Of a DNA stretch of 48,068 nucleotides, positions 1-48,068 are shown one piece after another. How positions within the stretch are numbered: the stretch's first letter is position 1; the number at the start of each line of letters is the position of its first letter. The position numbers were made by a program, and so were the translations under genes. The stretch is from a plasmid, in sequence record NZ_CP008945.1; one strand, written 5' to 3'. The notes below the pieces were generated by a model. It saw nothing but the letters and a program-made list of their open reading frames with translations, did no database searches and was not told the DNA's origin.

Positions 1-4
1 CTAT

Positions 5-21
5 GACGTCGAAAATGATAA
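5..21. repeat. Left terminal 17-bp inverted repeat GACGTCGAAAATGATAA. It is the perfect reverse complement of 48042..48058. Candidate outer att arm.
   Basis: Exact reverse-complement match between the two window ends, read directly from the sequence. Confidence 0.6.
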
Positions 22-157
22 GTAGGCGTTTGCATTAGCGAGTATGCCCCAAGGGGGCCAAGAAAATCGCTTGCGTTAGCGAGTGTATAGCGCGTTAGCT
101 CTGACCTGCAGAAACGCTCCCCGAGCACTATCACTTCGCTGCTGCCACGATTTCTGG

Positions 158-198
158 GCATGAGAAAAGCCCGTCCGGCGCTCATGCACGAACGGGCT
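158..198 (-). terminator. Candidate rho-independent terminator downstream of serine recombinase A.
   Basis: Hairpin AGCCCGT...ACGGGCT followed on the minus strand by TTTTCTC, about 20 bp after the stop at 219. Confidence 0.35.
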
Positions 199-218
199 AA
201 AAATTTCCCTCTAACCTC

Positions 219-1790
219 CTACAGCTGAACCCTCACTACCTCACCAACTCGGAACACGAACCGGATCGTATCCTCGTCTACGATGGCGTGGTCGATGAGT
301 GCGCTCCACTGTGAGGGGCGGAACTCGCTCACAGGTTCGCCCGCCAGATCGCCTAGGGCTGTAGTGACGGCGGCATGCTTGGCAGTGTTCGCTGCAATAT
401 CTGCCTCTAGGCTCGCTTTGCATGCGAGTGTCTTACGGTAGGCAGTATCGAGCTCTGTGTACTTGTTTTGGTAGGCGTCTTGGTCGAGCGCGCGTTGCTG
501 GTTTTCCGCAATCAGTGCTTCGATCTGCTCAGTGAGTTCCACGATTTTCGCCTGGCAGGCGGCGGCTTGTTCTTCCATGCGGCTCGTATCAAACATGGAG
601 TCAAAGATTTGCAGTAGGTGGCTTTGCCGTGACTGGCGGGCGATCAGTTGGTTGAGTGCTTGGACGAAAGCGTTCTTGATATGTTCGTCCTTCACAGTCG
701 CGCTGCTGCAAGGGTGTTCGACTGCGTATTTGTGGTTGCATTGCCAGACTGTGTACTTATATTTCGTGTTCGACGCCCACGTTTTACGCCCATACCATGC
801 ACCACACTGCGCACACTTGAGCCGGGTGGAGAATAAGCCGACTTTTGCTGACGATATGTTGCCATGCCTGGTGGTGAGCTCGTATTGCACCTGATCCCAG
901 ATACGCGGTTCGATGATCGGCTCATGATTACCTGATACATAGTATTGGGGTACTTCGCCTTCGTTGACCTTCATCTTCTTAGTAAGGAAATCGGTGGTGA
1001 ACGTCTTTTGCAGCAGGGCATCGCCCTTGTATTTTTCATTCGACAGGATGGAACGCACTGTCGACGTTGACCACACCTCTTTCCCACGCGGGGTGAGAAT
1101 CTTGCGGGTAGCGAGCTCGGTTTTGATCTCACTGATAGCCATCCCGTCAAGGAAAAGCTGGTAGATCAACCGGACAGTCGGTGCCTGGGTTTCGTCAATG
1201 ACGAGGTTACCGTCCGCTCCTTTCTTGTATCCGAGCAGCGACTTGTAGGGCACCATGACTTTTCCATCGGCAAAACGTTTCCTGTGTCCCCAGGTGACGT
1301 TTTCGGAGATAGAGCGGGATTCTTCTTGCGCCAGTGAGCTCATGATCGTGATCAATAGCTCGCCTTTGGCGTCGAAGGTGTAAATATTTTCCTTCTCAAA
1401 ATAGACCTCGACGCCTGCGTCTTTGAGCTTGCGCACGGTAGTGAGCGAGTCGACGGTGTTGCGTGCGAACCGGGACACGGATTTGGTGAGGATCAGATCG
1501 ATTTTGCCTGCCAGGGCATCATCGATCATGGTTTGGAATCCCTCACGGCGCTTCATAGAGGTGCCAGAGATACCTTCGTCGCAGTACATGCCCGCGAACT
1601 GCCAATCATTACGGGAGCGAATGTAGGTGGTGTAGTAGTCGATTTGCGCCTCATATGATGAGGTTTGTTCTTCCATCTCGGTAGAGACTCGCGCGTAGGC
1701 GGCGACCTTTCTGCGTGCCGGTACCCCGGACGGGGTTGTGACAGTTCCGGGTTTCTTTGTTGCGGGTATCGCAGTGACCGTGCGACTCAT
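219..1790 (-). CDS. Large serine recombinase (resolvase/invertase-type catalytic domain plus recombinase and zinc-ribbon domains), copy A.
   Basis: N-terminal YARVST...SGTSMKRREGFQ...KSVSRFARN serine-recombinase motifs. 523 aa. The ATG overlaps the stop of the upstream recombinase (ATGA). Confidence 0.85.
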   Translation of the reverse strand: MSRTVTAIPATKKPGTVTTPSGVPARRKVAAYARVSTEMEEQTSSYEAQIDYYTTYIRSRNDWQFAGMYCDEGISGTSMKRREGFQTMIDDALAGKIDLILTKSVSRFARNTVDSLTTVRKLKDAGVEVYFEKENIYTFDAKGELLITIMSSLAQEESRSISENVTWGHRKRFADGKVMVPYKSLLGYKKGADGNLVIDETQAPTVRLIYQLFLDGMAISEIKTELATRKILTPRGKEVWSTSTVRSILSNEKYKGDALLQKTFTTDFLTKKMKVNEGEVPQYYVSGNHEPIIEPRIWDQVQYELTTRHGNISSAKVGLFSTRLKCAQCGAWYGRKTWASNTKYKYTVWQCNHKYAVEHPCSSATVKDEHIKNAFVQALNQLIARQSRQSHLLQIFDSMFDTSRMEEQAAACQAKIVELTEQIEALIAENQQRALDQDAYQNKYTELDTAYRKTLACKASLEADIAANTAKHAAVTTALGDLAGEPVSEFRPSQWSALIDHAIVDEDTIRFVFRVGEVVRVQL

Positions 1791-3037
1791 GCCAACCTCC
1801 CCTCACTGGTTAAGCCCACCGGCGTCATAGTTCCATCCGCGAGGTGGAATGTGAGCTGGTGCGGGAAGGCTTCAATCATCACGATCTGCTCGCCAACCTG
1901 GACGGGGTCGAAACTTTGGGTGCCGAGCATGTCTGCGCAGGCTTGTTCGAGGAGTGTTTCGCGTAGGTTGTGCCCCCTACAGGGGTTGCCGTTCCCGGTG
2001 CAGGCACTCCAGCACCGCCAAAACTTATACGAGGTTCCAGACTTGTAGGTGCGGGTTTTGCGTTGATAGTTCTTCCCGCACGCGCCGCAGCAGATCCGTC
2101 CAGTGAACACGCCCGTGTTCTTTGACGGGGTCGCCGCCGGACCAATCTCGCGCCGATGAGCGATTTCTGCTTGCACCGCGTCAAACATCTCCTCGTCAAT
2201 GATTGGTGGGAGGGCTTGCTCAACCCAGTATCGCGGCAGCTCCCCGTCGTTGAGGGCACATGTGGGTGCTTGGATTGTGGGGCGGTACATTTTCTGTAGC
2301 ATTTGGCAGCCCTTGTAGCGCTCATTTTCGAGCATGCGACGAAACACTGACCCGTAGAAGCGTCCTCCACCGCGCGAACGCGCCCCTTGACCATTGAGGA
2401 TCGCGGCTGTCTTTTCCGGGCTGATCCCATCGAGATAATTGGCAAACAGTAAGCGCACAATCTTGGCTTCATCTTCAATGATGGTGAACTGGCCGTCTGC
2501 CCAGCTATAGCCGTAGACGACGAAAGAATTTGTGCCACCGTTCTTGTACCGGTTACGGATTGCCCATTTGACGTTCTGGGACAGGGAACGGGATTCTTCT
2601 TGAGCAAACGACGCCAACAAGGTCAGCAGGAGTTCTCCGTCAGCGCTGAGAGTGTCGATGCGTTCGCGTTCGAAGCGCACAGCCACACCAAGGTCTTTCA
2701 GCTCACGAACCGTAGCGAGCAGGTCGACAGTGTTGCGGGCAAGGCGCGAGATCGATTTACACAACACAAGATCGATCTTTCCTGCTCTGGCTGTGTTCAT
2801 CAGGTCGGCCAGGCCTTGCCGGGATTTCATCGAAGTGCCAGTAACCCCTTCGTCAGTGAATACACCCGCATAGGCCCATCCGGGCGTGGATTGGATCAGG
2901 CGCGAATAATACGACACTTGCGCCGATAGGGATGCTAACTGCTCGACGGCGTTGGTTGAGACCCGCGTGTATGCTGCTACGTTGACCAGTTTCGGGGTCG
3001 GCGGCCGAACTGGTGTCACCACACTAACTTGTGCCAC
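1787..3037 (-). CDS. Large serine recombinase, copy B. The likely start is the GTG at 3037, preceded by GAAAGGAG; the ORF track extends to 3067.
   Basis: AAYTRVST...GVTGTSMKSRQG...KSISRLARN motifs. A Cys-rich zinc-ribbon region. A C-terminal coiled-coil-like segment. Confidence 0.85.
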   Translation of the reverse strand: MAQVSVVTPVRPPTPKLVNVAAYTRVSTNAVEQLASLSAQVSYYSRLIQSTPGWAYAGVFTDEGVTGTSMKSRQGLADLMNTARAGKIDLVLCKSISRLARNTVDLLATVRELKDLGVAVRFERERIDTLSADGELLLTLLASFAQEESRSLSQNVKWAIRNRYKNGGTNSFVVYGYSWADGQFTIIEDEAKIVRLLFANYLDGISPEKTAAILNGQGARSRGGGRFYGSVFRRMLENERYKGCQMLQKMYRPTIQAPTCALNDGELPRYWVEQALPPIIDEEMFDAVQAEIAHRREIGPAATPSKNTGVFTGRICCGACGKNYQRKTRTYKSGTSYKFWRCWSACTGNGNPCRGHNLRETLLEQACADMLGTQSFDPVQVGEQIVMIEAFPHQLTFHLADGTMTPVGLTSEGRLA

Positions 3038-3060
3038 GTTTTCTCCTTTCGTGTTAGGTC

Positions 3061-3099
3061 TATACACGCTCTAAACCAGGTGTTTATCCAGTCGTTTCG
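3061..3099 (-). promoter_or_regulatory. R-motif copy 1 (CGAAACGACTGGATAAAC...TTTAGAGCGTGTATAGACC), immediately upstream of the recombinase B RBS.
   Basis: Shares the CGA[A/T]ACGACTGGATAA core and the TTTAGAG[C/T]GTGTAT segment with the copy at 23157..23213. Confidence 0.5.
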
Positions 3100-3825: not shown

Positions 3826-4638
3826 TTAGTAGCCGAGCTTGGCGTTCACTCGCGCTTGCACAGCGCTGTAGAGGTTTCCGAGACGGCGTTTACGCTCTTC
3901 GCCATTGCCGTACTCGCCACGGATCACGGCATCGGCAAGAGCATCGATGTTGGGCCCGGCGGGCTTCGTGGGCGTTCGGCCGGAGAGCTTTTCGTTGACT
4001 CGCTGTTGGACGGCGGCGTAGTTGGCTCCGAGGCGACGCTTGCGCTCATCCCCGTTGCCGTAGTCGCCACGGATCACGGCATCGGCGAGAGCGTCGATGT
4101 CCGGTGTGGCTGGTGCTGGTACTGGGGTGTTGCCGGTCATCTGCTCATACCAAGACTGTGCTCGTGCCATATACGCGGCGTGCTGACTGCCTGCCAGCGA
4201 GGCGGGGCATTCGGTCGAGGAGAAGTTCTTGTGCCCGAACACGTTCTTCCCCCAGACCGGTCGGCCGAGACCGTAGAACTTGCAAACGGCCGCGACGAGG
4301 TGTGCTCCGTTATCAAGGCACGCCTCCGACACAGCCCATGAATCACTAGTCATGTCGGCGTGTTCGATGCCGATGGAGGTGGTGTTGGCTACCCAGTTTC
4401 CTGCGTGCCAGGCGGTATCACGGTCCCACACCAACTGGCCTATGCGTCCGTCGGATTGAACTTGGTAGTGGGCGGAAGCAGGACGGGTTTGCCACACGTC
4501 GTAACATCCCTTGATGGTGAGGTTTCCGGCGTTGTGGTGGATGATGACCTTATCGATCCGTCTACCGTTCCTGCCGGGTGTGTAGTGCTTGTTCATGATG
4601 AGGCCGATATCGGCCTCAAGCGCGAACCAATTCTTCAT
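3826..4638 (-). CDS. Endolysin: N-acetylmuramoyl-L-alanine amidase (Amidase_2/PGRP) with two C-terminal CW_7 (Cpl-7-type) cell-wall-binding repeats.
   Basis: HHNAG...WHAGN amidase_2 signature. Two ~42-aa repeats IDALADAVIRG(D/E)YGNG(D/E)ERKRRLG...VQ.RVN.KL. RBS AAAGGAG. Confidence 0.85.
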   Translation of the reverse strand: MKNWFALEADIGLIMNKHYTPGRNGRRIDKVIIHHNAGNLTIKGCYDVWQTRPASAHYQVQSDGRIGQLVWDRDTAWHAGNWVANTTSIGIEHADMTSDSWAVSEACLDNGAHLVAAVCKFYGLGRPVWGKNVFGHKNFSSTECPASLAGSQHAAYMARAQSWYEQMTGNTPVPAPATPDIDALADAVIRGDYGNGDERKRRLGANYAAVQQRVNEKLSGRTPTKPAGPNIDALADAVIRGEYGNGEERKRRLGNLYSAVQARVNAKLGY

Positions 4639-4640
4639 GA

Positions 4641-5096
4641 CTAGTTCTCCTTTGTGTTTTCAGTGGTCGTTTCGGTCAGGGGTGGTCTGGTGTCGGCGCG
4701 GTTGGCAATCGCATCGAGCGCGCCACGCATTTGGGCAGGAACAGGCAGGCCCAGGCGGGTGGCGTTCTCGATCAGCGAGATGCCTTCGTTGGACAGGTAG
4801 AAGAAAATGACCGCCGCACGCAGCACGCCTGGCGCGCCGAGAATATGGACGTCGATCAAATGGGCGAGCCCGACGAGGGTGAAGATAAGGATCTTGCGGC
4901 TGATACCCCTAAAACCGACGGATGAGCTGAGGCGGCGCTCTGAAATGGCGGCGAAGACGCCGGTGATGTAGTCGGCGATAGCGAAGACGATCAGCGCATA
5001 GACAAGGCCGTCGAGCCCTCCAAGATAAGCGGCGAGCCAAGCACCGAAACCGGCGATGCCGGTTTGGATGGCGTGCCAGATAGCGTGAATAGACAT
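4641..5096 (-). CDS. Holin (toxin-secretion/phage-lysis holin family, Phage_holin_4_1-like). Likely start at 5096; the ORF track extends to 5144.
   Basis: Several transmembrane segments. DYITG...S..GFRGISRK motif. Sits immediately upstream of the endolysin. RBS GGAAGGAAC. Confidence 0.7.
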   Translation of the reverse strand: MSIHAIWHAIQTGIAGFGAWLAAYLGGLDGLVYALIVFAIADYITGVFAAISERRLSSSVGFRGISRKILIFTLVGLAHLIDVHILGAPGVLRAAVIFFYLSNEGISLIENATRLGLPVPAQMRGALDAIANRADTRPPLTETTTENTKEN

Positions 5097-5187
5097 AAAG
5101 CGTGTTCCTTCCAGGGTGGGTGGGCAAATGAAAAATACCCCCACCCATCTGGGGTGAAGGCAACAAAGAATCCCGCGTCGTAGCGGG

Positions 5188-5409
5188 TTACATGGTCGGG
5201 TCAGTCAAGACCTCCAAGATCGGCAGGCTCAAGTCGAAGGACGCCGCCTTGGGTGCTGGTAGTTCGTGGGCTTTGATAGCCTCTGCGGGTGGTGCAGGCG
5301 TGGCATCGGATTCAATTGGGACGATCGGCAACTGCACCTCATCGTCAGGCGTTGACTCATCAGCGGAGACTTCGGTGAGTTCTTTGCTCTTTTCTTCTTC
5401 GGCGCTCAT
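5188..5409 (-). CDS. Small acidic hypothetical protein.
   Basis: ORF with coupled overlap to the upstream gene. No recognisable domain. Confidence 0.4.
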   Translation of the reverse strand: MSAEEEKSKELTEVSADESTPDDEVQLPIVPIESDATPAPPAEAIKAHELPAPKAASFDLSLPILEVLTDPTM

Positions 5410-5828
5410 GTGTTGTCCTTGGTGATCGCGTCGTAGAGAACGTCGTAGGCCTCGGCCGCTTCGCCAGACAGCTCACCGTCATAGCCATCAAGAAGTGTTT
5501 TCACGTCCTTGTCGTGGCCGTCGTAGGTTGGCCCCGACACTTCAGCAATCGAGGTCAGCAGATTCTGACGGGCATCGAGAAATTCACTCGCTTTGTCGGG
5601 GTCAGCGAGCATGAAGGTGCCGTCGTCAGCGAACACTGGGCGACCACTCTCATCGAGGCTCGCATAGTGGGTGACGAGGTCGTATTCATCTTCCCCAAAC
5701 CGAGCAATCGCCTCCCTCACCAACGTCAGAAGTTTCGAGCGAGCACGGGACTGTGCCGCCTTCAACGGCATATTGGTGAGTAGGTCGGCGACGGGTTGGA
5801 GCTGCTGGTTGGCGAGCATGATGCGCAT
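5406..5828 (-). CDS. Hypothetical phage protein located between the tail genes and the lysis genes.
   Basis: Position and coding-like composition only. Confidence 0.45.
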   Translation of the reverse strand: MRIMLANQQLQPVADLLTNMPLKAAQSRARSKLLTLVREAIARFGEDEYDLVTHYASLDESGRPVFADDGTFMLADPDKASEFLDARQNLLTSIAEVSGPTYDGHDKDVKTLLDGYDGELSGEAAEAYDVLYDAITKDNT

Positions 5829-5839
5829 AGGTGTTCTCC

Positions 5840-8713: not shown

Positions 8714-8746
8714 GGGATGGCCATCGGAACTTGCGTGAGTTGGGTG

Positions 8747-37079: not shown

Positions 37080-37102
37080 AATCTTGTTCTTCTTTCTGTT
37101 CG

Positions 37103-38636: not shown

Positions 38637-38887
38637 GCCGCATCACCACCCTCACGGGTGACACCTGCCGCGTCGGCCAGCGCCATCAGGTCGTCGTCGG
38701 TTTCGGCGATGTCGATCTGCTTGACCGAGTTGCCGGGCACGACGATGGTGACGCGCTGCTTGCGACCCAGGAGCTTGCGCATGATGCGTCCGCGCAGGGT
38801 GACTGTGCGGGTGCCGACGATCCCCGGATCATCGGGGATGTGCTTGGCGATATGGAGCTTGAGCCGATGCTGGGTCATCTCCTTCAC
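38633..38887 (-). CDS. Hypothetical phage protein (84 aa).
   Basis: ORF. An X-motif lies immediately upstream. Confidence 0.45.
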   Translation of the reverse strand: MKEMTQHRLKLHIAKHIPDDPGIVGTRTVTLRGRIMRKLLGRKQRVTIVVPGNSVKQIDIAETDDDLMALADAAGVTREGGDAA

Positions 38888-39663: not shown

Positions 39664-39708
39664 TGGGGATCTCCTGTCGGATTGGGATCCGCAGGAGTCC
39701 GCCACGCC

Positions 39709-40078: not shown

Positions 40079-40753
40079 TTACGCGGCGAGCTTCAGGTTC
40101 TTGATGCGGATTGCGGCAGCCTGCTTAGAAACCTCGAAAGTCCCAGCGAGTTCCCGGACGACACGGCGCTTGCGTCGCTCATCCAATGATCGCCAGCCTT
40201 CGGGGGCAAGCTCGGTGAATGCCTGCGAGAACGGGTCACGGGGCATGAGTAGCGCCGCCCCGAGGTAGTTGGCTTGGAACTCGGCGCGGTCCACCTTGTT
40301 GTCGGCGCGAACGCCCTCCGAGGTAGTAGTGAACGGGCGATACCCTGTTCCTCCCTTGCACTTCATCCGAGGGTCTCGGTAGTAGATATGCCGATGCAGG
40401 AGGAGGTGAGCGCACTCGTGAGCAATCGTGAAACGCAGTCGACTGTCCGGGGAGTCACGCAAGGCATCGTCGTCGATAACGATTGTTCGTTCTGGAAAAA
40501 CGATGTCAACCCTTGCGCCGGTAGACTCGAAGACAGGGATGGACAGCTCCTGGAAGATCGACATTCCAAGCACGCTGCCGTCCGACGAAAGCCGCTGATA
40601 GTCCAGTGCCGCTCCCAGGTGAAACTCGGCGAAGCTGTCGACGTCGAGCGGGATAGGCGCTACCAGTTGAGCGCCACCGGCGAATTTCTCGAGCTCCTTC
40701 TCTGCGCGAGCCTCGAGTCGCTCCTTGCTGAGGTATTTGGGGTCAAGGCTCAC
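40079..40753 (-). CDS. ImmA/IrrE-family metallopeptidase (anti-repressor protease).
   Basis: HEXXH motif FTIAHECAHLLLH. Gene pairing with the upstream XRE repressor. Confidence 0.8.
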   Translation of the reverse strand: MSLDPKYLSKERLEARAEKELEKFAGGAQLVAPIPLDVDSFAEFHLGAALDYQRLSSDGSVLGMSIFQELSIPVFESTGARVDIVFPERTIVIDDDALRDSPDSRLRFTIAHECAHLLLHRHIYYRDPRMKCKGGTGYRPFTTTSEGVRADNKVDRAEFQANYLGAALLMPRDPFSQAFTELAPEGWRSLDERRKRRVVRELAGTFEVSKQAAAIRIKNLKLAA

Positions 40754-41127
40754 TGGTCAGCTTCCCCGCCTTCAATGATGTCGATGATGTCCCGCCACTG
40801 CTGGTCACTCAGGTCATGTTCTTTCGCCCGGCGAAGAGCGACGCGAGCCATGTCGGTTTGCATAATGTAGCCCGACAGGTCGGTAGACACCTGGTTCTCG
40901 CGAGTCAATGCTGCCAGGTCATACATCCGCTCCCTCTCGGAGCGGGAGAGTCGCAACGTCTCCGCGATGTCCCCCAGCTTGCCGTCCGGGGCAGCCCGGC
41001 GGCCTTTCTCGATGTCACTCAGGTAGGGAGCGGTCACACCGATGGCGTCCGCGAACTTGCGCATGGTTAAGCCTTGCGCCTTCCTATGTGCTTCCAGGAA
41101 GGCACCGAAGTTCTCTGATTCAGTCAT
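40750..41127 (-). CDS. XRE-family HTH repressor (ImmR/CI-like). Probable start MTESENF at 41127.
   Basis: HTH QGLTMRKFADAIGVTAPYLSDIEKGRR. RBS GAGGAGG. Confidence 0.8.
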   Translation of the reverse strand: MTESENFGAFLEAHRKAQGLTMRKFADAIGVTAPYLSDIEKGRRAAPDGKLGDIAETLRLSRSERERMYDLAALTRENQVSTDLSGYIMQTDMARVALRRAKEHDLSDQQWRDIIDIIEGGEADQ

Positions 41128-41148
41128 TGGAACAGCCTCCTCACGTCT

Positions 41149-41166
41149 GTTAGCAACTAAGCTAAC
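41149..41166. promoter_or_regulatory. Operator site 2: perfect dyad GTTAGCAACTAAGCTAAC, 22 bp upstream of the repressor start. Probable autoregulation site.
   Basis: Perfect 6-bp half-sites with an N6 spacer. Confidence 0.55.
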
Positions 41167-41196
41167 ACGTGAAGTAGGTTGGTGCAAGTCTACGGA

Positions 41197-44100
41197 TCAG
41201 GAGTCGTCTCGTTGGCTATCCTCGTGCCGGGGTCGGTTGAGGCGGTCGTGGATGAGCGGGAGCAGGATCGCGTCCACGTCGGCTCGGAAGGCTTTGTCCG
41301 ACAGGTACTTCATGGAGAAGTCGTGATTTTGGGTCATCCGCGCCAGCATGACGTCGGGCATCTTCTCGTCGTAGATGATCTTGAACAGGTCGAGCGGGTT
41401 ATGGGCACGCAGCTGGATCTCGTTGTCTTGGGCGAGGTCGTCGGCGACCTGTTCGAGCACTTTGTCCATGTTGGTGAACTCGGTGCCCCATCGTTCGTTG
41501 AGGGAGTCGAGGATCTTTGAGAGTCGCTCGCGGTCGTCTTCGGTGGGCATGCTCAGCTTGGGCGAGTTGTTCAACTCACCCACCTGGTCTTGTAGGTCGA
41601 TGGAGCCCTCGTAGACCGACTGGAGCCGGTAGTACTGCAAGGTGACCTCATCATCCAGGTGTGGGGCGGGGTCGCCGTCGATGTGGAGCTTGCGGGTCAG
41701 CAGTTTCGCGTATGCGGCGAACTTGTGCAGCTGCTCGTCGTCGAAGCGGATGATGTGGGTCAAGAACTCGTAGTTGCGGTTGAACTTGTTGAACGCCGAG
41801 CGCACCTCGACTTTTTCCTCGTCGTCAAGGGCGTCGAAGCGGCCGACCGCCGGGTCGAGATAGGCGTTGAGCCTGCCAAAGTCGAGGTTGGTCTGCTGCT
41901 TCTGCTCTCTGAAGAACACGGTCGCGAACCCGTCGATCTCCTCGACCTGCCACAGCTGGTAGGAGGCGATCAGGTGGTAGAGGTCGTAGACGATGTTCGG
42001 GTCGGTTTCCTCGCTGATCGAGGTCGACACGTAGTAGTCCTGGAACGCCGCCTGAATGTCGTCAGCGCTGTTGACGAAGTCCAACACGAACGTGTCTGAC
42101 TTGCCCGGGCACATCCGGTTGATCCGTGACAGAGTCTGCACGGCCTTGACCCCGTGGAGCTTCTTGTCCACATACATGGTCTGCAGCAGGGGCTGGTCGA
42201 ACCCGGTCTGGTATTTCTCGGCCACCAGCAGAATCTGGTACTCACCGGTGTCGAACCGGTCTGGCAGCTCGGCTTCGGGGAAGCCGTTGAGTTGTTCCTC
42301 GGTGTAGTCATGCCCGTCGTCTTCGACGGTGCCGGAGAACGCCACCAGCACACCCAGGTCGGTGTAGCCCTTGGCTTTGATGTAGTTGGCGAACGCGAAG
42401 TAGTAGCGTACCGCGTGCAACCGGGAGCCGGTCACCAGCATTGCCTTGGCTTTGCCGCCGATCTTGTGCGCCACGTTGCTGCGGAAGTGCTCGATGATGA
42501 TCTCGGCCTTCTGCCGCAGATTGTGCGGATGCAGGGCTAAGTACTTGCCCAGCGCCTTGTTGGCCTGCTTCTTGGCGTACTCCGGATCGTCAGCGGTGGC
42601 CTTACCAACCTTGTAGTACGTCTGGTAGGTGATGTAGTTCGCCAGCACGTCGAGGATAAACCCCTCCTCGATCGCCTGCTTCATCGAATACACATGGAAC
42701 GGGCGCGGCGCGCCACCAGGCGTCGGAGTGCCGAAAATCTCCAGAGTCTTCTGCTTCGGGGTGGCCGTGAACGCGAAGAACGACAGATTCGGCTGACAAC
42801 CGTGGGTAGCCATGTCGGCGGCGATCTGCTCGTCAACCTCCAACTGTTCGGTCTCCACCTGAGCCTCAGCCTTCGCATACCGATCCAGCAACTCGGCCTC
42901 AGACTCCTGACCCGCTTGGGCAGTGTCAGCCAGCACCTGCTTGAGCCGCTCAGATGCCTGCCCGGTCTGCGACGAGTGCGCCTCATCCACAATCACCGCG
43001 AACCGCTTCCCGACCGTCACAATGTTGGACACGTCAACGAACGGAAACTTCTGCAACGTCGAAATGATGATCCGAGCACCCCGACCCAGCGCATCAGTGA
43101 GCTGACGGGCGTTCTTGTCCACCTTCACCACCACACCGGCGGTGTGATCCATCGAAAACACCGTGTCCTGGAGTTGCTTGTCCAACACCCTCCGGTCAGT
43201 GATCACAATGATCGAATCAAACACCACCCGCTGCTCGTCATCATGCAGGTTTGACAGGTGGTGAGCCAGCCACGCGATCGTGTTCGACTTGCCCGAGCCC
43301 GCCGAATGCTGCACCAAATAGTTATGACCAGCGCCGTTCGCCTTCGCGTCCGCGATGAGTTTACGCACCGCATCGAGCTGGTGGAAGCGCGGAAAGATCA
43401 CCTTGTCTTTCGACTTCGCCGAACGCCCCTCGGGAGTCTTGCCGGGCACGAACTGCACAAACCGGTGCAAAATATCAAGCAGTGAATCCTTCGCCAGCAC
43501 CTGCTCCCACAAATACGAGGTCTTGAACTTCCCCTCCACCGGAGGATTACCAGCACCATTCTGGAAACCTCTGTTGAACGGCAGGAACACCGTATCTTGA
43601 CCGGCCAGCTTCGTCGTCATCCACACCTCATCGGTGTCAACCGCGAAATGCACCACCGCACGCCGATTCAACCCAAACAACGGCTCCGAGGCCGGGCGAT
43701 CCCGCTTGTACTGGGCGATCGCGTTCCGGTAGGTCTGCCCCGTCAGCGGGTTCTTCAACTCGAGCGTCGCCACCGGGATGCCGTTCACCAACAGCACCGT
43801 GTCAACCGAGTTCTCACTGCGCGTTGAATACCGCAGCTGGCGCACGATGCTCATCTCGTTCGCCCAATACTTCTCAGCAAGCACCTCGTTCAAGTCAGTG
43901 CCGGGAGCAAAATACACCAGCTTGAACCGAGCACCCACATCCTCAACGCCACGGCGCAACACATCGATCACACCACGCTGATCAAGCTGCGCAGCGACAC
44001 GCTTCAGAAACTTCTGCTCCGCGTTACCCCGGTAACTGCGCTCCAACTTCGCCCACTGATCAGGCTGAGTAACCTTCACAAACCGGATCAGATCCGCAGG

Positions 44101-44226
44101 ATACAGACACAGCTCACGATCAAAACCCTGCGGGTCACGCGACTCAAAGCGGTCAAACTCCGCGCCCCGGGCAGTCAGCCAGTACTCGATCTCCGACTCA
44201 AACCGCCGCTCCGACGTATCCATCAC
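41197..44226 (-). CDS. hsdR: Type I restriction enzyme R subunit (HsdR).
   Basis: 1009 aa. N-terminal Type I/III restriction domain. DEAD-box helicase motifs (GSGKS, DEAH). Confidence 0.9.
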   Translation of the reverse strand: MMDTSERRFESEIEYWLTARGAEFDRFESRDPQGFDRELCLYPADLIRFVKVTQPDQWAKLERSYRGNAEQKFLKRVAAQLDQRGVIDVLRRGVEDVGARFKLVYFAPGTDLNEVLAEKYWANEMSIVRQLRYSTRSENSVDTVLLVNGIPVATLELKNPLTGQTYRNAIAQYKRDRPASEPLFGLNRRAVVHFAVDTDEVWMTTKLAGQDTVFLPFNRGFQNGAGNPPVEGKFKTSYLWEQVLAKDSLLDILHRFVQFVPGKTPEGRSAKSKDKVIFPRFHQLDAVRKLIADAKANGAGHNYLVQHSAGSGKSNTIAWLAHHLSNLHDDEQRVVFDSIIVITDRRVLDKQLQDTVFSMDHTAGVVVKVDKNARQLTDALGRGARIIISTLQKFPFVDVSNIVTVGKRFAVIVDEAHSSQTGQASERLKQVLADTAQAGQESEAELLDRYAKAEAQVETEQLEVDEQIAADMATHGCQPNLSFFAFTATPKQKTLEIFGTPTPGGAPRPFHVYSMKQAIEEGFILDVLANYITYQTYYKVGKATADDPEYAKKQANKALGKYLALHPHNLRQKAEIIIEHFRSNVAHKIGGKAKAMLVTGSRLHAVRYYFAFANYIKAKGYTDLGVLVAFSGTVEDDGHDYTEEQLNGFPEAELPDRFDTGEYQILLVAEKYQTGFDQPLLQTMYVDKKLHGVKAVQTLSRINRMCPGKSDTFVLDFVNSADDIQAAFQDYYVSTSISEETDPNIVYDLYHLIASYQLWQVEEIDGFATVFFREQKQQTNLDFGRLNAYLDPAVGRFDALDDEEKVEVRSAFNKFNRNYEFLTHIIRFDDEQLHKFAAYAKLLTRKLHIDGDPAPHLDDEVTLQYYRLQSVYEGSIDLQDQVGELNNSPKLSMPTEDDRERLSKILDSLNERWGTEFTNMDKVLEQVADDLAQDNEIQLRAHNPLDLFKIIYDEKMPDVMLARMTQNHDFSMKYLSDKAFRADVDAILLPLIHDRLNRPRHEDSQRDDS

Positions 44227-45416
44227 GCAGCCTCCTCACTAACCCGAACCTTGCCCGTCACCACATCATTAATAACCTGCTTGCGATAAGCACCCAACAA
44301 CTCCATCTGGCGGTCAATATCGCCAATCAAGCCGTCAATTTCTGCTGTCTTCGAATCGAGGAAATCTGCGATTTCTTCCTGCTCGCGAAGCGGCGGAAGA
44401 AGTGTTGGCAGTTTCCTTAGTTCTGAATAGTTCAACGACTGCCGCACGCCAGATCCAAGCCCGTAGAAAATCTTCTTTAGATCGTAAGCGCGCATCATCC
44501 ATCCAAGGAATCGCGGATCTATCTGAGCCCCGGGAATAAGCCCAATGTATGCTCCTGTGATGATTCCACGTTCACTAACGTAACCACTGCGCAGGCTTCT
44601 CTTGTCATTTTGCAGATCGGTCATGCGTAGAACTACATACCCAGGATTAACGATTTGATAAGTATCAAACGAAGCTGACAACAGCCCAAAAGCCAGATTA
44701 ATATCCTTGCGAATGATCGAACCGTAGCTAAGGCTCAGGAGATTACTCTCCGAAAGATCCTTGTTCTTCGTTTTGTTCTCATCGGTCATATTTGAAAGCG
44801 TCTGGATCTGCCACGCTTCTGGGATCTCGCCGATCCACTGCAACCCACTTTCTTTCATGGGGGCTTCGGGGTCGAGTCCCTTCGTGACGGTGTGGGCGAT
44901 CAACTCACGCTTGTAACGCTCCAACAACTCCCGCTGGCGCCTGAGCTTCTCGACCACCACGTCAATCTCAGCAGTCTTCGCATCCAAGAACGCAGCCATC
45001 CGTTCCTGTACTTCAATGTGCGACGGTATGGAAATTCGAACCTTCTCGATAACGCTGGCTGATATTCCCGGCTGTGCAGCCGCCTGAGAATATTGATTTA
45101 GATTCATTTGGATTAGCAGATAATACAAATACCTTGGGAGAACAAGACCGGAGATCGAGGCGATAAGTGCATGCTCGGATGCATATGCGGGTTGTGCAAC
45201 AAAGTGCACGTTTCCGGCCAGTGCTCCCTGCCGACCCACTAGAAGGTTAGTTCCTTCAATATTCGATGTCTCGGTGTACCCTCTTATTCCGTTACCTCCA
45301 AATACTGGATAGGTTCCCGTTTCGTGGATCTCTTCTCCTCGAATAGATCCACCGGAACGGAATCTGGCTAGTCGCTTAAGCGGGATTTCCAAACTTCCAC
45401 CTGGGTAACTGTCCAT
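44223..45416 (-). CDS. hsdS: Type I restriction-modification specificity subunit (HsdS) with two target-recognition domains.
   Basis: Two TRDs separated by conserved coiled-coil spacers (..LDAKTAEID..). Lower GC than the flanking genes. Confidence 0.85.
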   Translation of the reverse strand: MDSYPGGSLEIPLKRLARFRSGGSIRGEEIHETGTYPVFGGNGIRGYTETSNIEGTNLLVGRQGALAGNVHFVAQPAYASEHALIASISGLVLPRYLYYLLIQMNLNQYSQAAAQPGISASVIEKVRISIPSHIEVQERMAAFLDAKTAEIDVVVEKLRRQRELLERYKRELIAHTVTKGLDPEAPMKESGLQWIGEIPEAWQIQTLSNMTDENKTKNKDLSESNLLSLSYGSIIRKDINLAFGLLSASFDTYQIVNPGYVVLRMTDLQNDKRSLRSGYVSERGIITGAYIGLIPGAQIDPRFLGWMMRAYDLKKIFYGLGSGVRQSLNYSELRKLPTLLPPLREQEEIADFLDSKTAEIDGLIGDIDRQMELLGAYRKQVINDVVTGKVRVSEEAA

Positions 45417-47465
45417 CTATACCGCCTGCTCACTGAATAGTTTGGCGATGGAGGCTTGGATGTGGGCTCCAAGGCTTTGGATTTCGGCGAGGGTTTTGGT
45501 TGGGTCGCCGAGTTCTTCGTATTGGTAGAAGTAGCGGGTGAAGGGGATCTCGTAGCCGATCTTGGTCTTGTCGGGGTCGACGTAGGCGTCGGCCGCGTAG
45601 GGGATGACTTCGCGCTGGATGTAGGCGTCGATGTCTTCAGCGAGTGGGATCTGCTCGGTGTCGCGCAGCGCAGGGTCAGGTTCCGGGTTGCCCTTGGTGT
45701 CGCGGCAGATGTCTGCAGTCGGGTCAGTTTCACCCAGAGCCACCACGATCGCTTTCAACAGCGGGGCGCGCACCGTCAAACCATGCTCTTTGAAAGAGGC
45801 TTTGAGGACCTTCGTGAATTCGTCTCGGTTCTTCCACACCCGCTGGTCGCCGAGAGTTTCGATGGCGTCGACGATCGCTCGTTGGGTCTTCTTGCCGCCC
45901 TCGATCTCTTGGGTGCGGGCGGCTTCGCTACGCTTCTTCGAGGTGGCCAGATTCTTGAACGGGGTCCGCTCCCAGACTCGCTCGACGCGCTCAGGTGTGG
46001 CGGTGAAGTTCAAACGTAGCGGGCGTTCCACCGTGACTTCATGGAAGCCGAACTCGCGGGTGTCGAAAATCTTGGAGTGCTCACCCTCGGTGAAGTCGCC
46101 GTAGATGCGCGCGATCTGGGCAATGTTGTCAGCGGTGAGGTATTTGCGTTTTTCGCCGAGCGGTTTGCGCATCCTGGCAAAGAACTTGGTGGCGTCGATC
46201 AGTTGCACCTTGTTCTTGCGGATCGATGCCTTCCGGTTGGAGAGCACCCAGATGTAGGTAAGGATGCCGGTGTTGTAGAACATCTGGTCAGGCAGGGCGA
46301 CGATGGTCTCAAGCCAGTCGTTTTCAAGAATCCAGCGACGAATGTTCGACTCGCCCGACCCTGCCGCGCCGGTAAACAGGGGCGAGCCGTTGAACACGAT
46401 CCCGATCCGAGTGCCCGGCGCGTTCTGCGTATCAGCCGGATCGTAAGACTTCATCTTCGAGATCATGTGCTGCAAGAACAGGAACGACCCATCAGAGATT
46501 CGGGGCAGGCCAGCGCCGAAGCGCCCCTTCCACCCCCGCTTCTCGGCCTCGTCCTTGATCGGGCCTGCGTACTTCTTCCATTCCACGCCGAAGGGTGGGT
46601 TGCACAGCATGTAGTTGAACGTCCGACCCGCTGTTCTGTCAGCGGTCAGCGAGTTGCCGAAGTAGATTCGGTCGGCGTCATCGCCCTTGATGAGAATGTC
46701 GGACTTTGCCACCGCGTAGGATTGCGGGTTGAGCTCCTGCCCGTACACTTCGATGCGCGCGTCGTCGTTGAGGACCCGGGCTCGTTCGATCGCTTCGGAG
46801 AGCATGCCACCGGTGCCAACTCCCGGGTCATACAGCGACGCCATGAACCCGGGCGCGCATATGGCATCCATGTCCGGGTCGAACAGCACCTCGACCATGA
46901 GCTGGATGACTTCACGTGGGGTGAAGTGCTCACCGGCGGTCTCGTTGGACAGCTCGTTGAATCGCCGGATCAGTTCTTCAAAGATCGACCCCATGTCTTC
47001 GTTGGAGACCGCTGCAGGTAAGAAGTCCACCGCAGGGTCAGTGAAAGCATCGACGATCTGGTAGAGCAGATCGGAGCGGTCGAGACGGTCAATCACGGTA
47101 TAGAAGTCGTAGGACTTCATCACGTCGCGGGCGTTCCGCGAAAAGCCCTCCACGTAGGAGCGCAGGTTACCTTCCAGGTTGTCAGGATCGTTCTTGAGCG
47201 TGTGCAGCGTGAACCTGGAGGTGTTCCAGAACGGGTAGCCCGTAGCTCTCGCGTATTGGATGCGCTTGACCTCAGCCGGGACACCCTTCTGGTCACGAAT
47301 CTGGGCAACTTTGTCCTTCGTACTCACGAGAACCGAATCGAGACGGGTAAGCACCGTGAACGGCAAGATCACGTCCCCGTACTCGTGCTCCTTGTAGTCA
47401 CCGCGCAGCAGGTTCGCAATCTTCCAAATGAAGCTGACATAGTTCGTTGTTTTCTCAGTGCCCAT
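45417..47465 (-). CDS. hsdM: Type I restriction-modification N6-adenine methyltransferase subunit (HsdM).
   Basis: HsdM N-terminal domain (IWKIANLLRGDY..EYGDVILPFTVLTRLD). NPPF catalytic motif. SAM-binding region. Confidence 0.9.
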   Translation of the reverse strand: MGTEKTTNYVSFIWKIANLLRGDYKEHEYGDVILPFTVLTRLDSVLVSTKDKVAQIRDQKGVPAEVKRIQYARATGYPFWNTSRFTLHTLKNDPDNLEGNLRSYVEGFSRNARDVMKSYDFYTVIDRLDRSDLLYQIVDAFTDPAVDFLPAAVSNEDMGSIFEELIRRFNELSNETAGEHFTPREVIQLMVEVLFDPDMDAICAPGFMASLYDPGVGTGGMLSEAIERARVLNDDARIEVYGQELNPQSYAVAKSDILIKGDDADRIYFGNSLTADRTAGRTFNYMLCNPPFGVEWKKYAGPIKDEAEKRGWKGRFGAGLPRISDGSFLFLQHMISKMKSYDPADTQNAPGTRIGIVFNGSPLFTGAAGSGESNIRRWILENDWLETIVALPDQMFYNTGILTYIWVLSNRKASIRKNKVQLIDATKFFARMRKPLGEKRKYLTADNIAQIARIYGDFTEGEHSKIFDTREFGFHEVTVERPLRLNFTATPERVERVWERTPFKNLATSKKRSEAARTQEIEGGKKTQRAIVDAIETLGDQRVWKNRDEFTKVLKASFKEHGLTVRAPLLKAIVVALGETDPTADICRDTKGNPEPDPALRDTEQIPLAEDIDAYIQREVIPYAADAYVDPDKTKIGYEIPFTRYFYQYEELGDPTKTLAEIQSLGAHIQASIAKLFSEQAV

Positions 47466-47664
47466 TCGGGTCAACTCCATCTTCCATCAATCGCTCGTAA
47501 CGCTCATGCGACATGACCACCACGAGAGGCTTTCCGTAACGCAACACGTAGGCCACATCGTCACCATCAGCCACTTCCTTGAGCAGCTTCGATGCCTGAC
47601 CACGTCCAAGGTCGCCAATGTTGATGTGCTTCATCGACTTCTTCGCCGTACGCTTCCGCACCAT
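47455..47664 (-). CDS. Phd/YefM-family antitoxin-like DNA-binding protein, translationally coupled to hsdM (11-nt overlap).
   Basis: KHINIGDLGRGQASKLLKEVADGDDVAYVLRYGKPLVVVMSHERYERL matches the Phd/YefM fold pattern. No cognate toxin gene follows. Confidence 0.6.
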   Translation of the reverse strand: MVRKRTAKKSMKHINIGDLGRGQASKLLKEVADGDDVAYVLRYGKPLVVVMSHERYERLMEDGVDPNGH

Positions 47665-47699
47665 CGTATCCTTCACCACGAGTTACCGCCAACGCCTCA

Positions 47700-47775
47700 T
47701 TTTCCCATAAATGCATGCAAAATATCGTCACAACATGCGCGAGATACTACATGTACTTTTGCATGTGGTTCTTCG
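47700..47775. promoter_or_regulatory. AT-rich promoter/operator region upstream of the Phd-like gene, containing the inverted repeat CATGCAAAAGTA ... TATTTTGCATG.
   Basis: Lower GC content. TTGTGAC -35-like element. Dyad symmetry typical of antitoxin-type autoregulation sites. Confidence 0.35.
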
Positions 47776-48041
47776 TGAAGATGGAGACATGTGCGCGAGC
47801 CAGAACGCCCCACAAGGTCGAAGGTGGGCACGGTCTTATCAATCACAATTGAGGGCACGCCCCCTCGCCAGATATCCGCTAACGCAAGCCCACCAGCAGA
47901 CCCCCTCAACCAGAAACGTGCACCACTCCAACGGGAAGATCGGGGACGAGCACCCGATTACTGAACCTCCAGCACACCAGCGAACAGCCCCAGAAACAAC
48001 AAAATCCCTGGTCAAAAGGGGTTCAGGAACTCACGCGGTTT

Positions 48042-48058
48042 TTATCATTTTCGACGTC
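48042..48058. repeat. Right terminal 17-bp inverted repeat TTATCATTTTCGACGTC, the reverse complement of 5..21.
   Basis: Exact match, read from the sequence. Confidence 0.6.
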
Positions 48059-48068
48059 TTTGTTTCCA

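What the first reader, a model, noticed from the sequence alone, without database searches (positions are those of the whole stretch)
1..48068. Perfect 17-bp inverted repeats at both window ends suggest the whole 48 kb is one integrated element with palindromic attB arms
Positions 5..21 (GACGTCGAAAATGATAA) and 48042..48058 (TTATCATTTTCGACGTC) are exact reverse complements. The sequence inside them diverges immediately. Large serine integrases recombine at sites whose two half-sites are inverted repeats around a central dinucleotide. After integration the host-derived outer arms (B in attL, B' in attR) therefore remain as an inverted repeat flanking the element. Two serine recombinases sit at the left end, and an RM/immunity region lies just inside the right end. 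The simplest reading is that attL is near position 22 and attR near 48041. That would place the Type I RM system and the Phd-like gene inside the prophage as cargo. Deleting the element would rebuild a perfect palindromic attB, GACGTCGAAAATGATAA-NN-TTATCATTTTCGACGTC.
Basis: partly seen in the sequence, partly recalled or inferred. Interest (0 to 1): 0.65.

Follow-up and report, generated by a model that had tools for sequence, protein, structure and literature searches.

The report
Phage attP arms, not host attB
The 17-bp inverted repeat at the two window ends is real, but it is the phage's own pair of integrase-binding arms (attP) from a serine-integrase prophage that inserts at the 3' end of a tRNA-Gly gene, not a split palindromic host site.

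Summary
The repeat is confirmed: 5-21 and 48042-48058 are exact reverse complements, unique in the window and absent from shuffles.

The window is one unit length of a 48-kb siphovirus-type prophage. It carries two large serine recombinases at one end and a Type I RM plus a Phd-like gene inside the other end.

The arms, however, belong to the element, not the host. Joining the window ends gives TTATCATTTTCGACGTC-TTTGTT-TC-CACTAT-GACGTCGAAAATGATAA, a 23+2+23 bp site. The same site occurs intact in relatives. In about 25 genomes from at least 10 actinobacterial genera, arm plus left-end sequence sits 4 nt after the CCA end of tRNA-Gly (once tRNA-Thr). The other arm abuts unrelated host DNA.

A metagenomic contig shows the tRNA-Gly/downstream junction unoccupied and without arms there, although a variant-arm relative sits about 290 bp downstream. 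All four site types (attP, attB, attL, attR) were observed. Exchange is confined to the central TC (window 48065-48066), about 6 bp outside each arm, not inside them. The predicted palindromic attB does not exist.

Overall this is an ordinary large-serine-integrase attP. Three less common features are a tRNA target, a conserved two-recombinase module, and tandem or integrase-less relatives.

The parts
1..4 (+). CTAT: the P'-side part of the attP spacer (spacer positions 11-14). The window starts right after the shared TCCA.
   Evidence: Register matches the intact sites TAAGTA-TC-CACTAT in L005 and L088. In attL junctions these 4 nt follow the tRNA CCA and vary by element lineage: CTAT, CTTA, ACAT, ATTG, CTTG, ATAT.
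5..21 (+). P' arm of attP (GACGTCGAAAATGATAA), the integrase-proximal half-site.
   Evidence: Always followed by the Y sequence, and 4 nt from a tRNA 3' end in about 25 genomes.
22..118 (+). Y: conserved element end next to the P' arm. It contains 2-3 copies of a (T)TGCGTTAGCG-type motif.
   Evidence: Conserved next to the arm in L001, L005 and L088-L120. In L005 the homology breaks at 118, where a 6.4-kb cassette is inserted. A small terminator-like hairpin lies at 82-67 on the minus strand.
219..1790 (-). Int1: large serine recombinase, 523 aa, with a long C-terminal extension after the zinc ribbon.
   Evidence: Pfam Resolvase + Recombinase + Zn_ribbon_recom. PDB hits to SPbeta SprA, TP901-1, A118 and phiC31 integrases. 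PHROG 95 integrase. RVST motif.
1787..3067 (-). Int2: paralogous large serine recombinase, 426 aa, ending about 45 residues after the zinc ribbon. Overlaps Int1 by 4 nt.
   Evidence: (39% identity to Int1). The pair is conserved at 88-91% in L095, L097, L118 and L120, and is present in nearly all 80 IMG/VR relatives.
3826..39705 (-). Phage body: lysin, tail, tape measure, capsid, portal, TerL, C5 and N6 methylases, SAM synthetase, SNF2 helicase, D5 primase, antirepressor, PolA, DUF2800 nuclease, sigma-like protein.
   Evidence: Pfam.
40079..41187 (-). HTH regulator (40750-41187) plus M78/ImmA-like peptidase (40079-40753): probable immunity module.
41197..47480 (-). Type I restriction-modification genes hsdR, hsdS and hsdM: cargo inside the element.
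   Evidence: Pfam. Collinear with phage genes and the arm in L123 and L124. The same module is in the 15.7-kb A. urogenitalis element.
47455..47679 (-). Phd/YefM-like 74-aa gene overlapping the hsdM start.
   Evidence: Pfam PF02604, E 7.7e-7, 29.2 bits, just under the 29.8-bit cutoff.
47857..48041 (+). X: conserved element end next to the P arm.
   Evidence: 74-90% identical in L002, L003, L005, L006, L007, L088, L094, L099 and L119.
48042..48058 (+). P arm of attP (TTATCATTTTCGACGTC).
48059..48068 (+). TTTGTT-TC-CA: P-side spacer. The central crossover dinucleotide TC is at 48065-48066, and the CA is shared with the tRNA CCA end.
   Evidence: The same 10 nt lie at the attR junction of Mobiluncus MAG L119.

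Best explanation
The two 17-mers are the P and P' arms of the attachment site (attP) of a temperate siphovirus that integrates by large-serine-recombinase recombination.

On the excised circle the site reads P arm (17) - 6 nt - TC - 6 nt - P' arm (17). That is 48 bp, made of two 23-bp half-sites around a non-palindromic central dinucleotide.

The inferred mechanism is the textbook one for this enzyme family. Integrase dimers bind attP and the host attB. Here attB is the last ~23 nt of a tRNA-Gly gene, ...CCCGTCNCCCGC-TC-CA, plus whatever lies downstream. The dimers synapse, make 2-nt staggered cuts at TC, rotate and religate.

This gives attL = tRNA...GC-TC-CACTAT-P' arm-Y-int, and attR = X-P arm-TTTGTT-TC-CA-host. 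The phage supplies CA, so the encoded CCA end is kept. The asymmetric TC fixes orientation, so the integrase end always lies next to the tRNA.

The window is exactly one unit of this element, cut just after the shared TCCA on the left and at its end on the right. That is why the arms sit 4 and 10 nt from the window ends.

What is shown: the architecture, all four junction types, the target, and the orientation rule. What is inferred: the cleavage chemistry, which of Int1 and Int2 acts, and the excision control.
For: (1) Joining the window ends gives the same 17+14+17 register as the intact sites in L005/L052 and L088.

(2) In about 25 genome loci (Gleimia, Actinomyces, Mobiluncus, Trueperella, Varibaculum, Winkia, Actinotignum, Actinobaculum, Arcanobacterium, Corynebacterium, Propionimicrobium), arm plus Y follows 4 nt after GCTCCA. 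In most of these, and in every such locus run through ARAGORN, this is the end of a complete tRNA-Gly(CCC/TCC), or of tRNA-Thr(CGT) in L102. In a few loci (L097, L099, L113, L114) it is only a partial 13-24-nt copy of the tRNA 3' end.

(3) The other arm plus X abuts unrelated DNA in L007, L094, L119 and L099.

(4) L137 has the complete tRNA-Gly(TCC) running directly into the same downstream DNA that follows arm-TAAGTATCCA in L007 (79 nt at 92%). It has no type-1 arm within 4.3 kb.

(5) attP and attB share only TCCA. attL diverges from attP left of T7, and L006/L145 diverges right after C8. This confines exchange to TC, the geometric centre.

(6) The orientation is invariant: the Y/int end is always the one next to the tRNA.

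(7) Integrases 67-70% identical carry a co-varying arm (GACGTCGGATTTGATAA) at the same place, also next to the tRNA-Gly 3' end.

(8) Int1 and Int2 have all three large-serine-recombinase domains and the RVST motif, and Int1 ends about 200 bp from the arm.

(9) In A. urogenitalis both junctions lie on one scaffold in the expected inverted arrangement.
Against: There is no experiment, and no read-level evidence of excision or circles.

The window's own host flanks are unavailable: the exact Int1 and HsdM products are not on record. I therefore cannot say whether the window was cut from an integrated prophage or from a circle.

Most junction loci were retrieved with the exact 17-mer, so arm conservation is partly ascertainment.

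L137 is not a pristine empty site. A variant-arm relative sits 290 bp downstream, next to a 13-nt duplicate of the tRNA end. A same-species empty site for A. urogenitalis was not obtained.

The 4-bp identity TCCA means sequence alone does not pin the cut to TC. That rests on site geometry and on the L006/L145 junction.

The B' half of attB is not conserved (3-8 of 21 nt between four sites), which is unusual for characterised serine integrases. The need for two recombinases is unexplained.
Confidence: 0.9

Rival explanations
1. One reading: the 17-mers are the host-derived B and B' arms of a palindromic attB. The crossover lies just inside them (about 22 / 48041), and excision rebuilds GACGTCGAAAATGATAA-NN-TTATCATTTTCGACGTC.
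For: The repeat is exact and lies at both ends. Serine-integrase sites do have inverted half-sites.
Against: The arms move with the element's X and Y ends into more than 10 genera, where the outer flanks differ. The outer flank on one side is always a tRNA 3' end. Intact sites have the arms in the opposite order, separated by 14 nt, with element DNA on both sides (L005/L123). The unoccupied tRNA junction in L137 has no arm at the junction and no exact or type-1 arm within 4.3 kb; a variant arm of a separate element lies about 290 bp away. No locus showed the predicted arrangement, although no dedicated scan for that exact palindrome was run.
Confidence: 0.02
2. The 17-mers are sub-terminal inverted repeats of a transposon-like element, and the repeated TCCA is a 4-bp target-site duplication.
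For: Inverted repeats lie near both ends, and a short direct repeat (TCCA) brackets the unit. Integrase-less derivatives bounded by the same ends exist (L099, L092).
Against: No transposase was found among the ORFs scanned, only serine recombinases. TCCA pre-exists once in the intact site and once in the tRNA, so nothing is duplicated. The 4 and 6 nt between repeat and TCCA are asymmetric. Insertion is strictly site- and orientation-specific at tRNA 3' ends. Intact arm-6-TCCA-4-arm junctions recur in five contigs.
Confidence: 0.03
3. The window is a circular or linear phage genome opened in the loop of a 17-bp hairpin. That hairpin would serve another role, such as a packaging (cos/pac) site, telomere-resolution site, replication origin or bidirectional terminator.
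For: The joined ends fold into a 17-bp stem (-18.6 kcal/mol, z = -7.8). The window is exactly one unit length.
Against: Exchange with tRNA and host DNA occurs in the middle of the spacer in dozens of genomes. The 14-nt centre is not palindromic, as a hairpin-telomere site would need, and no protelomerase-like gene was among the large ORFs scanned. TerL lies about 20 kb away. When the element is integrated, the arms are 48 kb apart and cannot pair. A secondary role in the circular form is not excluded.
Confidence: 0.04

Closest known systems
attP/attB systems of phage large serine integrases (Bxb1, phiC31, A118/LI, TP901-1, SPbeta SprA)
   Same: Three-domain recombinase with a catalytic serine. 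The integrase gene lies beside attP. attP is about 48 bp with inverted half-sites around a 2-bp non-palindromic centre. attB is unrelated apart from the centre. Hybrid attL and attR products form, and orientation is fixed.
   Different: The arms are a perfect 17-bp repeat, more symmetric than the characterised sites I recall (from memory, not tested here). The target is the 3' end of a tRNA gene, which Mageeney et al. 2020 (PMC7192596) called previously unreported for this class. Only one attB half-site is conserved. Two paralogous recombinases are encoded.
SCCmec cassette recombinases CcrA/CcrB
   Same: A pair of large serine recombinase genes. Insertion at the 3' end of a conserved housekeeping gene. 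Tandem or composite arrays. Recombinase-less cassettes bounded by the same ends.
   Different: Int1 and Int2 score far below the CcrA/B/C model cutoffs (143 and 114 bits against 900). The element is a tailed phage. The target is tRNA-Gly, not rlmH.
Triplet serine-integrase modules of Streptococcus ICEs (Ambroset et al. 2016, PMC4701971)
   Same: Several paralogous serine integrase genes in a conserved order at the element end. Some relatives here carry a third copy.
   Different: Those elements are conjugative and insert inside protein-coding genes (mutT, traG, hsdM). This one is a phage that preserves a tRNA.
Tyrosine-integrase prophages and islands at tRNA 3' ends, and CIME/accretion arrays
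   Same: The same kind of target (tRNA 3' end), tandem accretion, and decayed integrase-less derivatives.
   Different: A different enzyme family. No long duplicated tRNA core is made by this element; only TCCA is shared. The partial tRNA copies seen nearby probably come from other elements.

Membership tests
Large serine recombinase (serine integrase) att system | N-terminal resolvase-type catalytic domain with a serine nucleophile | tested here: met
   PF00239 at E 2e-34 (Int1) and 9e-33 (Int2). A..RVST motif in both.
Large serine recombinase (serine integrase) att system | Recombinase domain plus zinc-ribbon domain C-terminal to the catalytic domain | tested here: met
   PF07508 and PF13408 in both proteins. 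Alignment to SPbeta SprA chains across residues 75-399 for Int1 and 76-363 for Int2.
Large serine recombinase (serine integrase) att system | Coiled-coil motif associated with the zinc-ribbon domain (controls synapsis and directionality) | tested here: inconclusive
   Int1 has about 140 residues after the zinc ribbon, rich in heptad-like E/Q/A/L (sequence). Int2 has only about 45, and the Int1/Int2 alignment ends near Int1 residue 420. No structure prediction was run.
Large serine recombinase (serine integrase) att system | attP of about 50 bp with inverted half-sites around a central dinucleotide, adjacent to int | tested here: met
   23+2+23 bp site, about 200 bp from the Int1 stop codon. 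Intact in L005 and L088, and in the joined window ends.
Large serine recombinase (serine integrase) att system | attB distinct from attP, with identity limited to the crossover region; hybrid attL and attR products | tested here: met
   All four site types observed. Shared identity is TCCA only. The B half-site shares only GACG at +7..+10 with the P arms.
Large serine recombinase (serine integrase) att system | Two-nt staggered cleavage at the centre, subunit rotation, and excision dependent on a directionality factor | not testable with these tools
   Inferred from family knowledge. The junctions confine exchange to TC.
   No arm at the unoccupied tRNA junction in L137, and no type-1 arm within 4.3 kb. 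Both arms lie on contiguous element DNA in L005/L123.
SCC-type CcrA/CcrB recombinases | Score above the NCBIfam equivalog cutoffs for CcrA, CcrB or CcrC | tested here: not met
   Best scores are 142.6 bits (Int1) and 113.7 bits (Int2) against a 900-bit cutoff.
Transposon with terminal inverted repeats | A transposase gene and a newly generated target-site duplication at varied sites | tested here: not met
   No transposase family among the 28 window ORFs scanned. The target is site-specific, and TCCA pre-exists in both partners.
Hairpin-telomere (protelomerase) or cos end | A site palindromic through its centre, or ends adjacent to the terminase genes | tested here: not met
   The central 14 nt TTTGTTTCCACTAT is non-palindromic. 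TerL is at 19546-21153.

The most novel reading that the evidence does not exclude
The conserved Int2+Int1 pair (one paralogue lacking the long C-terminal extension) may recognise an intrinsically asymmetric attB, in which only the tRNA half-site matters. If so, any junction that keeps a tRNA-Gly/Thr 3' end, including the attL of a resident element, would remain a target. That would account for three observations: the tandem arrays, the hetero-arm junctions, and the small integrase-less cassettes bounded by the same 48-bp half-sites (ECF/ABC transporter, Type I RM, Hachiman-like). Those cassettes could then be moved in trans by the phage recombinases. This would amount to an SCC-like accretion system, run by phages, at tRNA genes of Actinomycetota.
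Probability: 0.25. Interest if true: 0.6.

Novelty: new member of a known kind. Interest (0 to 1): 0.35.

Why it matters
It corrects the map. The element's true ends are about 6 bp outside the arms, and the real target is a tRNA-Gly 3' end. Anyone looking for an empty site, designing junction PCR or delimiting the prophage would otherwise search for a sequence that does not exist.

It also documents, from sequence alone, all four att sites of a large-serine-integrase family that targets tRNA genes across many Actinomycetaceae, Corynebacterium and Propionimicrobium species of the human urogenital and skin flora. The literature I could search describes this target class as essentially unreported for these enzymes.

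A 48-bp attP with perfect arms, paired with a target half-site that lies within a tRNA gene, could interest people who collect orthogonal integrases as tools.

Defence cargo (Type I RM; a Hachiman-like pair in a relative) sitting next to attP fits the known pattern of cargo slots at prophage ends.

Tried and rejected
- Megablast of the whole window against deposited phages found only a 395-bp, 74% helicase match to Corynebacterium phages. The window is not a deposited genome.
- ARAGORN found no tRNA inside the window, so the target tRNA lies outside it.
- Exact-product look-ups of the window's Int1 and HsdM found nothing on record, so the window's own flanks could not be retrieved.
- For a same-species empty site in A. 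urogenitalis, I identified the flanking host gene (dCTP deaminase). The only contig with the identical protein stops 130 nt short of the tRNA. I ran no further search on this.
- I tested whether the L005 contig is a circular or overlapping assembly by fetching capsid loci. That contig was not among the hits, so its structural module differs and the tandem-versus-circle question stays open for L005. L088 (323-kb contig) and the L006 contig (two capsid genes) show that chromosomal tandem or composite arrangements exist.
- Promoter and terminator scans of both ends were uninformative.
- My genome scan pattern required RWA after the arm. This excluded the common AAG-type X ends, so attR junctions are under-sampled.
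- L004, L089, L104, L108 and L112 are chance 17-mer hits in unrelated organisms.
- I considered a hairpin-telomere, a cos site and a transposon, and rejected each (see the rival explanations).


Full report
**Observation.** Positions 5-21 (GACGTCGAAAATGATAA) and 48042-48058 (TTATCATTTTCGACGTC) are exact reverse complements (pair I25). Allowing 3 mismatches, they are the only two matches in the window. No dinucleotide-preserving shuffle gave two matches. The repeat is real and far beyond chance, particularly given that both copies lie within 30 nt of the ends.

**What the window is.** All large ORFs are on the minus strand. From left to right they are:
- two large serine recombinases: Int1 at 219-1790 and Int2 at 1787-3067, each with Resolvase, Recombinase and zinc-ribbon domains;
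- an amidase lysin, tail endopeptidase, tape measure, capsid, portal and TerL;
- two DNA methylases and a SAM synthetase;
- SNF2 helicase, D5 primase, antirepressor, PolA, a DUF2800 nuclease and a sigma-like protein;
- an HTH plus M78-peptidase pair;
- a Type I RM (hsdR, hsdS, hsdM);
- a 74-aa Phd/YefM-like gene.

GC content is about 58%. There is no tRNA in the window. It is not a deposited phage.

**The key geometric point.** An exact-17-mer scan of viral contigs instead found L005. There, the window's right end (45412-48068, 90% identical) runs directly into its left end (1-118, 91.5%) through TTATCATTTTCGACGTC-TAAGTATCCACTAT-GACGTCGAAAATGATAA. The window's own ends, when joined, give TTATCATTTTCGACGTC-TTTGTTTCCA|CTAT-GACGTCGAAAATGATAA. 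This has the same 14-nt spacer in the same register. On both sides of the L005 site lies phage DNA: about 16 kb collinear with window 48068 down to 32282 on one side, and the Int1/Int2 pair at 93-94% / 90% identity on the other. The arms are therefore inside the mobile unit and face each other across a 14-nt spacer.

**Junctions in genomes.** A scan of one genome per species returned 33 loci. About five are chance hits in unrelated phyla. The rest come from Gleimia, Actinomyces, Mobiluncus, Trueperella, Varibaculum, Winkia, Actinotignum, Actinobaculum, Arcanobacterium, Corynebacterium and Propionimicrobium.

In about 25 loci, the arm followed by the window's left-end sequence (Y, window 22-118) lies exactly 4 nt after ...GCTCCA. 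In most of them, and in every such locus I ran through ARAGORN, this is the end of a complete tRNA-Gly(CCC) or tRNA-Gly(TCC), or of tRNA-Thr(CGT) in Mobiluncus curtisii. In a few loci it is only a partial 13-24-nt copy of the tRNA end (discussed below).

The arm followed by the right-end sequence (X, window 47857-48041) abuts unrelated DNA:
- TAAGTATCCA-CGGGTTTCC in A. urogenitalis (L094);
- TAAGTATCCA-TTGACTAAAAG in L007;
- TAAGCCTCCA-CTAACACCCC in Corynebacterium (L099);
- TTTGTTTCCA-AATTTGCTGGG in a Mobiluncus MAG (L119). These 10 nt are the window's own last 10 nt.

Integrases only 67-70% identical (L009-L012) carry a variant arm, GACGTCGGATTTGATAA, at the same distance from the gene. It too lies 4 nt from a tRNA-Gly 3' end. 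Arm and integrase therefore go together.

**Unoccupied target.** I scanned metagenomes with L007's host flank, starting at the shared CCA. This found L137, a 113.8-kb contig. In it a complete tRNA-Gly(TCC) (...CCCGTCGCCCGCTCCA) runs directly into TTGACTAAAAGCCGGGC..., which is the DNA that follows arm-TAAGTATCCA in L007.

No type-1 arm occurs within the 4.3 kb held. There is a caveat. About 290 bp further on lies a 13-nt duplicate of the tRNA end (GTCGCCCGCTCCA), followed by CTTG, the variant arm, Y and an integrase. This is a related element at a displaced partial tRNA copy. So the locus is not element-free, but the junction used by L007's phage is unoccupied there and carries no arm.

**The four sites**:

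| Site | Sequence |
|---|---|
| attB | cgggttcgattcccgtcgcccgc-TC-cattgactaaaagccgggcttca |
| attP | ttatcattttcgacgtctaagta-TC-cactatgacgtcgaaaatgataa |
| attL | cgggttcgattcccgtcgcccgc-TC-cactatgacgtcgaaaatgataa |
| attR | ttatcattttcgacgtctaagta-TC-cattgactaaaagccgggcttca |

attP and attB share only TCCA. attL departs from attP immediately left of the T. In L006/L145, a truncated phage (TerL to capsid) is fused to arm-X of a second phage, and the identity with attP ends immediately after the C. Exchange is therefore confined to TC. That dinucleotide is the exact centre of a 23+2+23 bp site.

In window coordinates the right-hand TC is at 48065-48066. The left-hand copy lies 3-4 nt before position 1. 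The window starts just after the tRNA's CCA and ends at the second TCCA, so it is exactly one unit length. I cannot tell whether it was cut from an integrated prophage or from a circle.

**Mechanism.** The architecture matches what is established for large serine integrases: a roughly 48-bp attP with inverted half-sites beside the integrase gene; an unrelated attB; a non-palindromic central dinucleotide that sets polarity; and hybrid attL and attR products. The polarity prediction holds, because the integrase end is next to the tRNA in every attL seen. The phage contributes CA after the crossover, so the encoded CCA end is preserved.

Both recombinases hit solved serine integrases (SPbeta SprA, TP901-1, A118, phiC31) and PHROG 95 "integrase". 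Cleavage chemistry, which protein acts, and excision control are inferred, not shown.

**Less ordinary features.**

(a) *The target.* Mageeney et al. 2020 (PMC7192596) state that use of a t(m)RNA gene by a large serine integrase had not been reported. They saw it in only 14 of 297 computational calls. My literature searches found no description of this family.

(b) *attB is one-sided.* Ten distinct tRNA half-sites are 14-22 of 23 identical to one another, and share only GACG at +7..+10 with the P arms. Four independent downstream half-sites are unrelated (3-8 of 21).

(c) *Two recombinases.* Int1 and Int2 are 39% identical paralogues. Int2 lacks most of Int1's post-zinc-ribbon extension. The Int2-then-Int1 gene order is present in nearly all 80 IMG/VR relatives, down to about 50% identity, sometimes with a third copy. 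They are not Ccr orthologues. Triplet modules are known in Streptococcus ICEs (PMC4701971).

(d) *Intact and hetero-arm junctions inside chromosomes.* L088 has an intact site in a 323-kb Trueperella contig. L092, L002 and L003 have one type-1 arm paired with a diverged arm. These indicate tandem arrays.

(e) *Integrase-less elements with the same arms and the same X and Y ends:*
- a 7-kb ECF/ABC-transporter cassette in Corynebacterium (L099/L114);
- a 4.3-kb element in Varibaculum (L092);
- a 15.7-kb element in A. urogenitalis that carries the window's Type I RM at 90-92% identity.

For the first two, tblastn found no full recombinase gene. For the A. urogenitalis element only 7.6 of its 15.7 kb could be read, so its recombinase content is unknown.

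(f) *Cargo slots on both sides of attP.* Next to X lies the RM plus Phd-like gene here, and a HamA-plus-helicase pair in L088. Next to Y lies the 6.4-kb cassette in L005, L109 and L111.

**Rivals.**
- A transposon reading fails. No transposase was found, TCCA pre-exists in both partners, and insertion is strictly site- and orientation-specific.
- A hairpin, cos or telomere reading is unsupported. The joined ends do fold well. However, the centre is not palindromic, TerL is 20 kb away, and exchange with host DNA occurs within the spacer.

**Verdict.** This is a new member of a well-understood kind of system. It has a rarely documented target class and an uncharacterised two-recombinase module. 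Interest is modest (0.35).

Noticed in passing
L099 146-7125 (also L114); L092 128-4449: Small elements bounded by the same arms and the same X and Y ends, with no full recombinase gene by tblastn (L092 has only a 64-aa Int1-like fragment). One is a 7-kb ECF transporter plus two ABC exporters in Corynebacterium. The other is a 4.3-kb element (ABC ATPase, bacterial PH domain) next to tRNA-Gly in Varibaculum. They could be deletion derivatives, or cassettes mobilisable in trans.
   Followed up: partly
L088 2803-2850; L092 about 97-144; L002 about 5130-5175; L003 about 3630-3675; L005 4112-4159: Intact arm-N14-arm junctions inside contigs, some pairing a type-1 arm with a diverged arm (GACCTCGCATTTGATAA, GACATCGGATTTGATAA). 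This implies tandem arrays of related elements at one tRNA. For L005, tandem versus circular was not resolved.
   Followed up: partly
L094 958-8000 and L093 1-651 (NZ_DS999574.1 544,958-560,651): Actinomyces urogenitalis DSM 15434 has a 15.7-kb element with the same ends. It carries the window's Type I RM, Phd-like gene and HTH region (window 40665-48068) at 90-92% identity. The middle 8 kb could not be read.
   Followed up: partly
L088 3033-6717: At the position occupied by the Type I RM in the window (just inside the X end), Trueperella bernardiae has a HamA protein plus a DEAD/ResIII helicase, a Hachiman-like defence pair. This points to a defence-cargo slot next to attP.
   Followed up: no
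L001 6876-6903; L009-L011; L097; L099/L113/L114; L137 (rc) 3643-3657: Partial copies (13-30 nt) of the tRNA-Gly 3' end lie directly next to the arm instead of a full tRNA, twice in tandem in C. riegelii (L113). They probably come from other elements inserted later between the tRNA and this element. This is not demonstrated.
   Followed up: partly
L102 6942-7038: In Mobiluncus curtisii ATCC 35241 the same arm and Y end follow tRNA-Thr(CGT) (...GGCGGCTCCA-CTTG-arm). That half-site lacks the GACG shared by the tRNA-Gly half-sites and the P arms.
   Followed up: no
L145 2661-8905 (contig of L006): A truncated prophage (TerL, portal, capsid) is fused exactly at the central TC to arm-X of a complete second prophage. 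This looks like a site-specific deletion or a pseudo-site event.
   Followed up: partly
window 3684-3725, 34200-34241, 38925-38966: A 42-nt direct repeat family (76-86% identical) in three places, two of them intergenic. On the coding (minus) strand it ends in GAAGGGAG just upstream of ORF starts. It may be a phage-specific promoter or leader, and a sigma-like gene lies at 38884-39705.
   Followed up: no
window 31-45, 71-85, 92-100 and 47877-47887: A (T)TGCGTTAGCG-type motif is repeated in the Y end and occurs once, inverted, in the X end. This accounts for the second inverted pair (69-92 / 47866-47889). One copy forms a small terminator-like hairpin (82-67, minus strand). Function unknown.
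   Followed up: partly
window 23199-27080: The phage carries a C5 cytosine methylase, a ParB-N6/N4 methylase and a full S-adenosylmethionine synthetase in a row, in addition to the Type I RM.
   Followed up: no
L008-L087 (for example L024, L032, L063, L064, L067, L077): The Int2-then-Int1 gene pair is conserved in nearly all of the 80 best IMG/VR relatives of Int1 (out of 599 or more hits). Several loci have a third serine recombinase gene downstream.
   Followed up: partly
window 47455-47679: The Phd/YefM-like ORF has no adjacent toxin-like partner among the ORFs listed, and it overlaps the hsdM start by 26 nt. It may act as a regulator of the RM operon rather than as an antitoxin.
   Followed up: no
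window 21602-21732 and 22748-22878: A 131-nt direct repeat (85% identical), with copies 1146 nt apart, just upstream of the terminase region. Not examined.
   Followed up: no
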